NCBI RefSeq assembly: GCF_057098645.1
Contig: NZ_CM169472.1
DNA length: 64,000 nucleotides
Strand: one strand, 5' to 3'
In this document: positions 57,401 through 60,400 of the stretch, in pieces
Layout of the letters: the number at the start of each line of letters is the position of its first letter
Position numbering within the stretch: position 1 is the first letter of the stretch
Position numbers: made by a program

Positions 57401-60400
57401 AAACCAGAGCGACGTTTGTCACCCACCGGCAACTGCAAATAGGGGCTATAAAAGATCGGTACCGGACCCACCTTAAAGCGGGCGTTCCAGATCTCCGCAA
57501 CTTGTTCTTCGCGGTCATGAATAATTTCGCTACCTACCACACTCCAGGTGTCAGAACCAGGCAGACAGGAGGTAAAGCTACCGTTATCCAGAATGGTATA
57601 GCGGTTTTCGCCACGTTGTTTCATCAGGTCCGCTTTACCGCGGCCCTGGCGACCCACCATCTGGTAATCACCCTCCCAGACGTTGGTATCTTTGGTGTTC
57701 AGATTCGCCCAGCCTTTCGGCCCTTTGAGGATCACCTGGTTATCGTCGTAATGGACATTACCGAGCGCATCAACGGTACGTACCGGCTCCGGTTGTCCTG
57801 GTGCCTCTTTTTGATGGAGCTGCACTTCGTCGGCCTGCAGACGGCTGTTACCCTGCATGATATCCACGCTGCCAGTAAACACGGCGTCATCCGGGTAGTC
57901 CCCTTTCGCGTGGTCAGCATTGATAGTCACGGGTAAGTCATTGGTATCGCCCTGTACCAGAGGACGGTCATAGCTTGGCACGCCCAACATGCACTGTGAG
58001 GCGAGGTCGGCTGCCAGTCCCTGTTGACTATAAAGGGCGGTGGCAATCATGGTGACCAGGAGAGTGGGGATACGTTTTTTCATACGTTGATTTTATTGTT
58101 CCATCATCGGTAACGTTGCGCGTGACAAACGGTCAGAGACTAACGTACTCGTCATCTCTACGCTAGTGTTAATCCTGTCCGAATAGCGTCAGTGGTGTTA
58201 GGCACGGCATTGAATGACAGGTATGATAATGCAAATTATAGGCGATGTCCCACAATTGACCGCAGCCAGAAAACGGTAAAAGCACCTTTATATTGTGGGA
58301 GATAGCCCTGATATCCGTGTGTCGATTTGGGGAATATATGCAGTATTGGGGAAAAATCATTGGCGTGGCCGTGGCCTTACTGATGGGCGGCGGCTTTTGG
58401 GGCGTAGTGTTAGGTCTGTTAATTGGCCATATGTTTGATAAAGCCCGTAGCCGTAAAATGGCGTGGTTCGCCAACCAGCGTGAGCGTCAGGCGCTGTTTT
58501 TTGCCACCACTTTTGAAGTGATGGGGCATTTAACCAAATCCAAAGGTCGCGTCACGGAGGCTGATATTCATATCGCCAGCCAGTTGATGGACCGAATGAA
58601 CCTTCATGGCGCTTCCCGTACTGCGGCGCAAAACGCGTTCCGGGTGGGAAAATCAGACAATTACCCGCTGCGCGAAAAGATGCGCCAGTTTCGCAGTGTC
58701 TGCTTTGGTCGTTTTGACTTAATTCGTATGTTTCTGGAGATCCAGATTCAGGCGGCGTTTGCTGATGGTTCACTGCACCCGAATGAACGGGCGGTGCTGT
58801 ATGTCATTGCTGAAGAATTAGGGATCTCCCGCGCCCAGTTTGACCAGTTTTTGCGCATGATGCAGGGCGGTGCACAGTTTGGCGGCGGTTATCAGCAGCA
58901 ATCTGGCGGTGGTAACTGGCAGCAAGCGCAGCGTGGCCCGACGCTGGAAGATGCCTGTAATGTTTTGGGCGTGAAGCCGACGGATGATGCGACCACCATC
59001 AAACGTGCCTACCGTAAGCTGATGAGTGAACACCATCCCGATAAGTTGGTGGCGAAAGGTTTGCCGCCTGAGATGATGGAGATGGCGAAGCAAAAAGCGC
59101 AGGAAATTCAGCAGGCCTATGAATTGATTAAGCAGCAGAAAGGGTTTAAGTGACCCTGTAAATGATGCTGAGTAACTGCCCACGATTAAAGGTGGCCGCC
59201 CTGGCGGTCACTTCTTTGAGAAAAGGCGTTTACTCAGAGTGGTGGACAGGCTCAATACACGGTTTACGGGAGGGTTTCTGTTGGTTTTATCGCGTTGACC
59301 CTGCTTAAGGTTGAGAGCTTTACGACGAGCGGAATTATATTTTTACGTCTTAAAAATAAAAAACACATATCTGAATGAGCGATTTTTGAAAGTATATTTA
59401 TTCAGAGCGCGCATCATGAGTTTTTAACTCAATGCGAGGCTATTACCATGAAAGTATCAGTTCCAGGCATGCCGGCTACGCTTTTAAATATGAGCAATAA
59501 CGATATTTATAAGATGGTGAGCGGGGACAAGATTGACGTGAAGATGAATATCTTTCAACGCTTGTGGGAGACGTTACGTCATCTGTTCTGGTCAGATAAA
59601 CAGACTGAGGCTTATAAACTTCTGTTCAATTTCGTGAATAAAAAGGCTGGCAACATCAACGCCTCAAAATACTTTACTGGGGCTGTCAACGAGAATGAGA
59701 AAGAAAAGTTTATCAATAGCCTGGAATTATTCAATGAACTCAAAACATGCGCAAAAAATCCGGATGAGATGGTCGCAAAGGGCAATATGCGCTGGGTCGC
59801 CGAGATCTACGGTGATATCGAGTTAAGTGTCACTTTTTTCATTGAAAATAAGGAGATATGTACTCAGACGTTGCAGCTGCATAAAGGCCCAGGTAACCTG
59901 GGCGTTGATCTTGGAGAGGCTTACCTTCCCGGCGTTGACATGAGGAATTGTTACTTTGGTAAAAAAACAATGAAAGGTAAAGATGAAATCCTTTATGAGC
60001 AACCTGGGTGGAATGCTAACCTGGACGGTGCTATCCTGGACGGTGCTACCGTGGACGGTGCTATCCACCTATATGATGAGGTAATTATTATTTATAAAAT
60101 CACCCCCAAAAAAATTGATACTGAAGAAATTGCTACTAAACAAAGTACTGCTGAAGAAATTATTGCAACGCAATTATTGAATGATCCAGAATAAGCTAAG
60201 GTTGAAGGGGCTGGAACGGCCCCTTCAACCTTAGCAGTAGCGTAGGATGATTTCACAATTAGAAAGTCCTGCATGATGAGCGAGAGAAGAGGCTCGTGAC
60301 GCAAGGCGTCGTGCACGACGCGGATCACCGAGATGGGCATCGCCAACCAGACTGCTAATTAGCCCATGAATAACAATCAGAAAGGACCATAACAGACCCG

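What the first reader, a model, noticed from the sequence alone, without database searches (positions are those of the whole stretch)
60195..60235. Perfect 17-bp inverted repeat immediately after the yabP-like stop codon
GCTAAGGTTGAAGGGGC and its exact reverse complement are separated by a 7-nt loop, directly abutting the stop codon and with no U-tract. This is an unusually long perfect palindrome for a terminator. It could be an mRNA-stabilising stem-loop or a protein-binding site.
Basis: seen in the sequence. Interest (0 to 1): 0.25.

Follow-up and report, generated by a model that had tools for sequence, protein, structure and literature searches.

The report
Hairpin scar at a truncated insertion sequence
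The perfect 17-bp palindrome after the E. coli effector gene espY1 (K-12 yabP/yabQ) is real, but it is most likely a by-product of the DNA rearrangement that cut off a neighbouring insertion sequence, because one arm is leftover transposase coding sequence and the other is its inverted copy; it is an ordinary feature.

Summary
The arms are 60195-60211 and 60219-60235, perfectly complementary, with a 7-nt spacer. They start directly after the TAA stop (60192-60194) of a 248-aa ORF. About 4e-5 such repeats are expected by chance in 64 kb.

The window is E. coli (lptD-djlA-espY1-rluA-rapA). The ORF is the T3SS effector gene espY1, the intact form of K-12 yabP/yabQ.

Window 60219-60564 is the first ~345 bp of an ISEc13-like (IS50/Tn5-type) insertion sequence on the minus strand. 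Homology to intact ISEc13 (86.6%) begins exactly at the first base of the right arm. That arm encodes transposase residues A-K-V-E-G-A, matching Tn5 'AAQEGA'. The left arm has no collinear counterpart in the IS; it is the reverse complement of the right arm. It sits exactly between the IS breakpoint and non-IS DNA.

The best reading is an inverted templated insertion, made by snap-back or template switching when the IS was truncated.

The palindrome is single-copy, at this one locus, in 2084 of 5426 complete E. coli genomes. I found no significant constraint, no compensatory change, and no mapped 3' end in published K-12 Term-seq. It folds strongly as RNA on both strands (-33 to -37 kcal/mol). 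Only the minus strand has a U-rich tail. Any function (espY1 3'-end protection, antisense termination) is untested. Interest is low.

The parts
59448..60194 (+). espY1 (T3SS effector EspY1; intact form of the K-12 yabP/yabQ split gene); stop codon TAA at 60192-60194
   Evidence: ORF list. RefSeq annotation of 99.8%-identical O145:H28 DNA. K-12 annotates yabP plus yabQ. Weak Pentapeptide Pfam hit.
60195..60211 (.). Left arm: the exact reverse complement of the right arm. It has no collinear counterpart in ISEc13. It is the inverted templated copy at the junction.
   Evidence: its only IS similarity is in inverted orientation, 15/17 to IS positions 329-346
60212..60218 (.). Spacer or loop TGGAACG (TGGAAC in K-12 and most alleles). 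GGAAC is still collinear with ISEc13 (GGTAC).
60219..60235 (-). Right arm: ISEc13-like transposase coding sequence (minus-strand codons A-K-V-E-G-A, corresponding to ISEc13 AQVEGA and Tn5 AAQEGA)
   Evidence: blastn homology to intact ISEc13 starts at query position 25, which is window 60219. Translation and alignments.
60219..60564 (-). Remnant (first ~345 bp from the outer end) of an IS4-family, IS50/Tn5-like element closest to ISEc13. It contains a frameshifted N-terminal transposase pseudogene (RefSeq: 60218-60390).
   Evidence: 86.6% identity to intact ISEc13 over 347 nt. Alignment A1. RefSeq pseudogene annotation. Pfam Tnp_DNA_bind at 21.3 bits, below the cut-off of 24. Tn5 transposase residues 20-60, E = 0.01.
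60546..60564 (-). Degenerate outer-end terminal repeat of the IS (minus strand CTGCCTCTTGTACATAAAT, compared with ISEc13 CTGTCTCTTATACACAAGT)
60520..60549 (-). Hairpin plus T8 run: the terminator-like site downstream of rluA, lying inside the IS remnant
   Evidence: terminator scan, fold, alignment to ISEc13
60185..60194 (-). U-rich tail (UUAUUCUGGA) that follows the stem on the minus strand. It is the reverse complement of the last espY1 codons.
59154..60598 (.). Variable islet (espY1 plus IS remnant) that replaces a REP-containing 116-bp djlA-rluA spacer found in strains without it
   Evidence: alignment with the empty-site strain L005

Best explanation
The palindrome is a rearrangement scar. 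An IS50/Tn5-like insertion sequence (closest relative ISEc13) once lay with its outer end next to the 3' end of rluA. It was later truncated about 345 bp in, within codon ~62 of its transposase gene.

At the breakpoint, a DNA 3' end folded back or switched to the complementary strand. It copied 17 nt of the IS's own sequence in inverted orientation and was then joined to the DNA that carries the espY1 stop codon. That single event produced a perfect stem: the right arm is the original transposase codons (A-K-V-E-G-A) and the left arm is the templated inverted copy.

Shown: the homology boundaries, the coding identity of the right arm, the absence of a collinear counterpart for the left arm, and the single-copy, one-locus distribution. 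Inferred: the snap-back or template-switch mechanism, and that junction and copy arose in one event.

The structure forms a very stable hairpin in transcripts of either strand. On the espY1 strand it could stop 3'-to-5' exonucleases but not terminate, because it has no U-tract. On the opposite strand it resembles an intrinsic terminator that would stop IS or rluA read-through from running antisense into espY1. I regard these effects as incidental and unproven rather than selected.
For: Homology with intact ISEc13 copies runs from the IS outer end (window 60564) to exactly the first base of the right arm (60219) at 86.6% identity (alignment A1).

After frameshift correction, the remnant reads LGDPRRARRLASRASSLAHHAGLS-IVKSSYATAKVEGA. 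It aligns to Tn5 transposase residues 20-60, ending at EGA, which is the end of the right arm. ISEc13 continues YRLIRNP, whereas the window continues VPAPSTLAYS, which is the loop plus left arm.

Nothing else left of the right arm in the islet resembles the IS, except the left arm itself in inverted orientation.

Both borders of the 17-nt copy are breakpoints: IS-collinear loop on one side and non-IS espY1 DNA on the other. This argues for formation during the junction event. A 2-3-nt GCC/GGC match at the switch point is compatible with snap-back priming.

The palindrome is single-copy, at one locus, in 2084 of 5426 genomes. No constraint is detectable beyond background: arms 1/34 versus 39/329 variable columns. 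One arm variant is uncompensated. One strain has a natural 45-bp deletion of it.

Published work shows that replication template switching can create perfect hairpins in one event (PMC8794818).
Against: No allele with the pre-event state was found. That includes no match in a metagenome scan for shorter spacings between the espY1 stop and the IS remnant. The mechanism is therefore inferred from the end product only.

The arms are nearly invariant across 38 sampled alleles (P about 0.08). That is the direction expected under weak constraint, or under continuing arm homogenisation.

The closest available IS is only about 86% identical, so the exact switch point is uncertain by a few bases. It depends on a 1-nt indel in the loop.
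Confidence: 0.8

Rival explanations
1. The palindrome is a selected mRNA-stabilising 3' stem-loop. espY1 transcripts end downstream (Rho-dependent or at the IS-end hairpin) and are trimmed back to the stem, which blocks PNPase and RNase II, as REP elements do.
For: The RNA hairpin is very stable, at -36.6 kcal/mol, z = -8.2. It has no U-tract on this strand. In K-12 a Rho-termination region lies downstream on the + strand at 60116, with RNA coverage in the 800-nt window that starts just after the palindrome. This is compatible with read-through transcripts that would need a protective structure. Strains without the islet carry REP sequences in the same intergenic position.
Against: No curated Term-seq 3' end lies at K-12 5925x-593xx in three growth conditions, although yabP/yabQ may simply be poorly expressed there. 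There is no significant sequence constraint and no compensatory change. The element is deleted in strain MB53, where espY1 stays intact. Its origin as an inverted copy of transposase codons explains the perfect stem without invoking selection.
Confidence: 0.25
2. The palindrome is an intrinsic terminator acting on the minus strand. It stops transcripts that start in the IS remnant or read through from rluA, insulating espY1 from antisense transcription.
For: The terminator scan flags it only on the minus strand: 17-bp stem, tail TTATTCTGGA with 5 T in 8. The minus-strand hairpin folds at -33.2 kcal/mol. It lies between convergent transcription units.
Against: A stronger canonical terminator (9-bp stem plus U8) already follows rluA about 300 nt upstream on that strand. 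A 17-bp stem with an interrupted U-tract is atypical. K-12 data show a minus-strand Rho-termination region at 58260, so antisense RNA does exist over yabP. No Term-seq 3' end is listed at 5925x-5929x. The single arm variant seen would create a C.A mismatch on this strand.
Confidence: 0.2
3. The palindrome is a binding site for a dimeric DNA-binding protein (an operator or other protein-binding site).
For: It has perfect dyad symmetry, 17 bp + 7 bp + 17 bp.
Against: One half-site is demonstrably leftover transposase coding sequence and the other is its copy. It lies at the 3' ends of convergent genes, not near a promoter. It occurs nowhere else in the window or genome. Spacer length varies between alleles, 6 versus 7 nt.
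Confidence: 0.03
4. The palindrome is a member of a dispersed palindromic repeat family (REP/BIME, ERIC, MITE), or a pair of IS terminal inverted repeats.
For: It is an extragenic palindrome next to an IS remnant. REPs occupy the homologous spacer in strains without the islet.
Against: There is one copy per genome, always at this locus, and none elsewhere in the window. Rfam shows nothing above noise. The IS ends are CTGTCTCTTATACACAAG and CTGTCTCTTGATCAGATCT, unrelated to the arms.
Confidence: 0.01

Closest known systems
Template-switch (quasipalindrome or snap-back) mutations that create perfect hairpins; inverted templated insertions at rearrangement junctions (Monttinen & Loytynoja 2022, PMC8794818; from my own knowledge, Ripley's quasipalindrome model and the snap-back junctions of tandem inversion duplications in Salmonella)
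   Same: A stretch is the exact reverse complement of immediately adjacent sequence. The source arm has independent ancestry (IS transposase codons) and the copy does not. The product is a perfect stem made in one step. The short loop retains the ancestral sequence.
   Different: The outer border of the copy coincides with a large truncation and fusion junction (IS joined to espY1 DNA) rather than lying in otherwise collinear sequence. No pre-event allele is available to reconstruct the four switch points.
ISEc13 / IS50 (Tn5) of the IS4 family
   Same: 86.6% DNA identity to ISEc13 over window 60219-60565. A Tn5-like outer end. N-terminal transposase DNA-binding region with the LGDPRR motif.
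   Different: Only the first ~345 of 1564 bp remain. The reading frame is broken. The DDE catalytic domain and the inside end are absent. It is a dead remnant, not a mobile element.
REP/BIME extragenic palindromes acting as 3' mRNA stabilisers
   Same: An extragenic stem-loop after a stop codon, without a U-tract, in the djlA-rluA spacer where other strains carry REPs. It could block 3' exonucleases.
   Different: It is single-copy and has no REP consensus. The stem is a 17-19-bp perfect one. It is derived from IS coding sequence.
Rho-independent (including bidirectional) terminators between convergent genes
   Same: A GC-containing hairpin between convergent units, with a U-rich tail on the minus strand.
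   Different: There is no U-tract on the espY1 strand. The stem is much longer than usual. No mapped 3' end appears in K-12 Term-seq. A canonical terminator for rluA lies 300 nt away.

Membership tests
Intrinsic (Rho-independent) terminator | Stable GC-containing stem-loop | tested here: met
   -36.6 kcal/mol (+ strand) and -33.2 kcal/mol (- strand)
Intrinsic (Rho-independent) terminator | U-tract immediately 3' of the stem, on the espY1 (+) strand | tested here: not met
   The tail is AGUAGCGUAGG. The scan does not flag the + strand.
Intrinsic (Rho-independent) terminator | U-tract immediately 3' of the stem, on the minus strand | tested here: inconclusive
   The tail UUAUUCUGGA has 5 U in 8 and passes the simple scan, but the tract is interrupted.
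Intrinsic (Rho-independent) terminator | RNA 3' ends mapped at the stem base | tested here: inconclusive
   No curated 3' end at K-12 5925x-593xx in Adams et al. 2021 supplementary file 1. Expression of yabP/yabQ there is unknown. No EHEC data were found.
REP/BIME or other dispersed palindromic repeats | Many copies per genome sharing a consensus | tested here: not met
   Median of 1 place per genome, at one locus. Unique in the window.
IS terminal inverted repeats / MITE | Arms correspond to the IS ends and are flanked by a target-site duplication | tested here: not met
   The ISEc13 ends are CTGTCTCTTATACACAAG and CTGTCTCTTGATCAGATCT with a 9-bp duplication. The arms map to IS positions 329-346, inside the transposase gene.
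IS4-family ISEc13/IS50-like element (for the adjoining sequence) | DNA homology to the IS, including its outer end | tested here: met
   86.6% over 347 nt up to the outer end. The outer end has 4 mismatches to the ISEc13 end sequence: 4 of the 18 nt used as the search pattern, 5 of 19 over the full 19-nt end.
IS4-family ISEc13/IS50-like element (for the adjoining sequence) | Intact DDE transposase and second (inside) end, i.e. a complete mobile element | tested here: not met
   Only about 60 N-terminal codons remain, and they are frameshifted. No inside end is found in the islet.
Template-switch / inverted templated insertion scar | The new segment is the exact reverse complement of adjacent sequence | tested here: met
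   17/17
Template-switch / inverted templated insertion scar | The source arm is ancestral (present in outgroup homologues) and the copy arm is absent from them | tested here: met
   The right arm is collinear with ISEc13 and Tn5 at DNA and protein level. The left arm is not.
Template-switch / inverted templated insertion scar | A pre-event allele exists that shows the ancestral sequence | tested here: inconclusive
   None was seen among 2084 E. coli genomes with the region, 17 sampled loci or 27 metagenome contigs. The 14 records covering less than 80% of the query were not inspected, apart from MB53.
Integron attC site (gene-cassette 3' recombination site) | R''(RYYYAAC)...R'(GTTRRRY) core sites in that order, with an imperfect stem and extrahelical bases | tested here: not met
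   Read directly from the sequence: GTTGAAG precedes CTTCAAC (the reverse order, each a 6/7 match). The stem is perfect and one arm is IS-derived.
CsrA binding site | GGA in a hairpin loop plus a second GGA 10-63 nt away, and CLIP evidence | tested here: inconclusive
   The sequence has GGA in the loop (60213-60215) and AGGAUGA at 60244-60250. yabP and yabQ are absent from the supplements of the K-12 CsrA CLIP study PMC5694010.

The most novel reading that the evidence does not exclude
The IS remnant has been co-opted as the 3' regulatory module of two convergent genes. Its outer-end hairpin with a U8 run serves as rluA's terminator. The junction palindrome acts as a two-way insulator that protects the 3' end of the effector mRNA espY1 on one strand and stops antisense read-through on the other. 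A GGA loop motif plus the downstream AGGAUGA might also link espY1 to CsrA control.
Probability: 0.15. Interest if true: 0.35.

Novelty: new member of a known kind. Interest (0 to 1): 0.15.

Why it matters
It matters mainly as a cautionary and explanatory case. A strikingly perfect hairpin next to a virulence-effector gene turns out to be explained by its mutational origin: an inverted templated copy at an IS truncation junction, not by selection for an RNA or protein-binding function. It gives a clean natural bacterial example of a stem created in one step by strand switching. It also flags that the K-12 reference (MG1655) leaves this IS remnant unannotated. If the hairpin does affect espY1 mRNA stability or antisense transcription, that would be a small example of IS debris being reused as regulatory sequence.

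Tried and rejected
Repeat family: an arm search in the window and a 96-nt search of 5426 E. coli genomes both show a single copy. Rejected.

Rfam scan at permissive E-value: only noise (mir-133 E = 0.51, GcvB E = 0.2).

IS terminal repeat, MITE or circle-junction idea: the ISEc13 ends are unrelated to the arms. No IS end or other IS-like DNA lies left of espY1.

Integron attC idea: the core sites are in the wrong order and the stem is perfect. Rejected from the sequence.

Covariation or constraint test on 38 alleles (20 haplotypes): arms 1/34 versus 39/329 variable columns, not significant, and no compensatory pair.

Search for relatives outside E. coli: the genome-contig scan with EspY1 returned only an E. 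coli-like contaminant contig in a Collinsella MAG. All protein homologues are E. coli or Shigella. No outgroup allele was obtained.

Search for a pre-palindrome allele in metagenomes: spacing 18-48 nt gave 0 hits. The positive control with spacing 40-60 gave 27 contigs, all with the palindrome.

Literature: yabP, yabQ, EspY1, ECs0061 and ISEc13 searches gave nothing on this element. K-12 Term-seq and Rho data are not decisive. The Dar & Sorek supplements and the SEnd-seq paper are not held. The CsrA CLIP supplements have no yabP or yabQ.

TSD partner: the 9 bp next to the IS outer end (CCCTTAGGA) has no second copy nearby.

Full report
**Observation.** The inverted repeat is exactly as described. 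The arms are 60195-60211 (GCTAAGGTTGAAGGGGC) and 60219-60235, with 17/17 complementary bases and a 7-nt spacer. The TAA stop of ORF 59448-60194 occupies 60192-60194, so the stem begins at the next base. The arm sequence has no other match in the window at up to 3 mismatches. It is the longest perfect close-range inverted repeat in the 64 kb and the only perfect one of 12 nt or more with a spacer of 10 or less. About 4e-5 such 17-mers are expected by chance. As RNA, the + strand forms 19 pairs (one U.G) with a GAA triloop at -36.6 kcal/mol. The minus strand forms 17 pairs at -33.2 kcal/mol. As single-stranded DNA the energy is -22.1 kcal/mol.

**Context.** The window is E. coli, with gene order lptD-djlA-ORF-rluA-rapA. 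It is 99.8% identical over 1251 nt to E. coli O145:H28. RefSeq names the ORF espY1, a type III secretion effector. In K-12 the same gene is split into yabP and yabQ. Directly downstream on the minus strand, RefSeq annotates a frameshifted, C-terminally missing 'transposase DNA-binding-containing protein'. Strains without espY1 have a 116-bp REP-containing spacer between djlA and rluA. The variable islet therefore spans about 59154-60598.

**What the arms are.**
- Aligning the region with full ISEc13 copies shows homology from the IS outer end to the palindrome. ISEc13 is 1564 bp and IS50/Tn5-like. Its ends are CTGTCTCTTATACACAAG and CTGTCTCTTGATCAGATCT, with a 9-bp target duplication. In the window the outer end is degenerate and lies at 60564.
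- blastn against intact plasmid-borne ISEc13 starts at query base 25, which is window 60219, the first base of the right arm. Identity is 86.6%.
- On the minus strand the frameshift-corrected remnant reads ...LGDPRRARRLASRASSLAHHAGLS/IVKSSYATAKVEGA. It matches Tn5 transposase residues 20-60 (E = 0.01), and the alignment ends at EGA, the last codons of the right arm.
- ISEc13 continues YRLIRNP. The window continues VPAPSTLAYS, which is simply the loop and left arm read through.
- The loop bases GGAAC are still collinear with ISEc13 GGTAC. With a 1-nt indel, collinearity may extend 3 nt (GCC) into the distal arm.
- The left arm has no collinear IS counterpart. Its only IS similarity is to the same IS segment in inverted orientation (15/17). 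Nothing else in the islet left of it resembles the IS beyond shuffled controls.

The right arm is therefore relic transposase coding sequence, and the left arm is an inverted duplicate of it. The duplicate lies exactly between the IS breakpoint and non-IS DNA.

**Origin (inferred).** Both borders of the 17-nt copy are breakpoints. The most economical history is a single complex event: the IS was truncated, and a 3' end snapped back or switched strands. The 2-3-nt GCC/GGC match could have primed this. The end then copied 17 nt of its own complement and was joined to the DNA ending in the espY1 stop. Replication template switching is documented to create perfect hairpins in one step (PMC8794818). 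From my own knowledge, the same logic underlies quasipalindrome mutagenesis and snap-back junctions of inversion duplications. I found no pre-event allele, so the mechanism rests on the end product.

**Distribution and constraint.**
- The 96-nt region around the palindrome occurs in 2084 of 5426 complete E. coli genomes, once per genome at this locus, nearly always at 95% identity or more.
- Most alleles, including K-12 (59280-59319), have a 6-nt loop (TGGAAC). The window's 7-nt loop is a minority form.
- Across 38 sampled alleles (20 haplotypes), 1 of 34 arm columns varies, against 39 of 329 in the rest of the remnant. The binomial P is 0.076 and the Fisher p is 0.15.
- The single arm change is an uncompensated A-to-G at 60205 in one metagenome contig.
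- Strain MB53 lacks the palindrome through a clean 45-bp deletion, with espY1 intact.
- In some alleles a frameshift in the repeat-built C-terminal tail moves the stop to a TGA whose last base lies 10 nt before the stem (7 nt before the TAA). Stop-stem abutment is therefore not conserved.

**Function.**
- On the espY1 strand there is no U-tract, so intrinsic termination is unlikely. A 3'-exonuclease barrier is plausible but untested. A ribosome terminating at TAA would have to melt the 5' arm (established ribosome footprint geometry).
- On the minus strand the stem is followed by UUAUUCUGGA, and the consensus scan calls it terminator-like. A canonical hairpin plus U8 already follows rluA at 60520-60549.
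- Published K-12 Term-seq lists no 3' end at the palindrome. Rho-termination regions at 60116(+) and 58260(-) show RNA on both strands beyond it, which neither proves nor excludes read-through.
- Rfam gives nothing.
- A GGA in the loop and AGGAUGA 10 nt downstream resemble CsrA sites. K-12 CLIP supplements do not list yabP or yabQ.

**Verdict.** The element is a single-copy junction palindrome created when an ISEc13-like IS was truncated next to espY1. It is an ordinary mutational scar of a known kind. Any RNA-level role is possible but unsupported. Confidence is about 0.8 in the origin and composition, and about 0.6 that it has no selected function.

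Noticed in passing
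window 60520-60564: The terminator-like hairpin plus T8 run downstream of rluA lies inside the outer-end region of the IS remnant. Intact ISEc13 has CCCCCCCGGGG followed by ATTTGTGAT there, with no loop and no U-run. Strains lacking the islet have REP sequence after rluA instead. This may be IS debris reused as a core-gene terminator.
   Followed up: partly
window 60014-60066 and 60112-60161: There are two 15-bp tandem repeat arrays inside espY1: the pentapeptide repeats and the C-terminal tail. EspY1 alleles range from 216 to 286 aa and down to 74% identity. Some alleles have frameshifted tails that end at an upstream TGA.
   Followed up: partly
L004 1525-1535 (E. coli MB53), equivalent to window 60200-60244: A natural 45-bp deletion removes the palindrome cleanly (GCTAA|GGAT). 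This is consistent with palindrome-associated deletion and shows the element is dispensable for keeping espY1 intact.
   Followed up: yes
NC_000913.3 59280-59686 (L049): The MG1655 reference record annotates nothing between yabQ and rluA. Other RefSeq K-12 records annotate the transposase pseudogene there. The IS remnant and palindrome are unannotated in the reference.
   Followed up: yes
window 59154-60598 versus L005 1885-2000: The espY1 plus IS-remnant islet replaces a REP/BIME-containing djlA-rluA spacer. About 38% of complete E. coli genomes carry the palindrome-bearing form.
   Followed up: partly
window 42583-42688: A 43-nt imperfect inverted repeat (74% complementary, 20-nt spacer) rich in TTTCAATATTG motifs. 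It contains a nested 16-nt repeat.
   Followed up: no
L046 (metagenome contig), from window-equivalent ~60452 onward: The contig carries the palindrome and the proximal IS remnant, then diverges into unrelated AT-rich sequence. This could be a further rearrangement or an assembly chimera.
   Followed up: no
L007 (contig in a 'Collinsella sp.' MAG): A 1646-bp contig binned into a Collinsella MAG is plainly E. coli espY1-rluA DNA, so it is a binning contaminant.
   Followed up: yes
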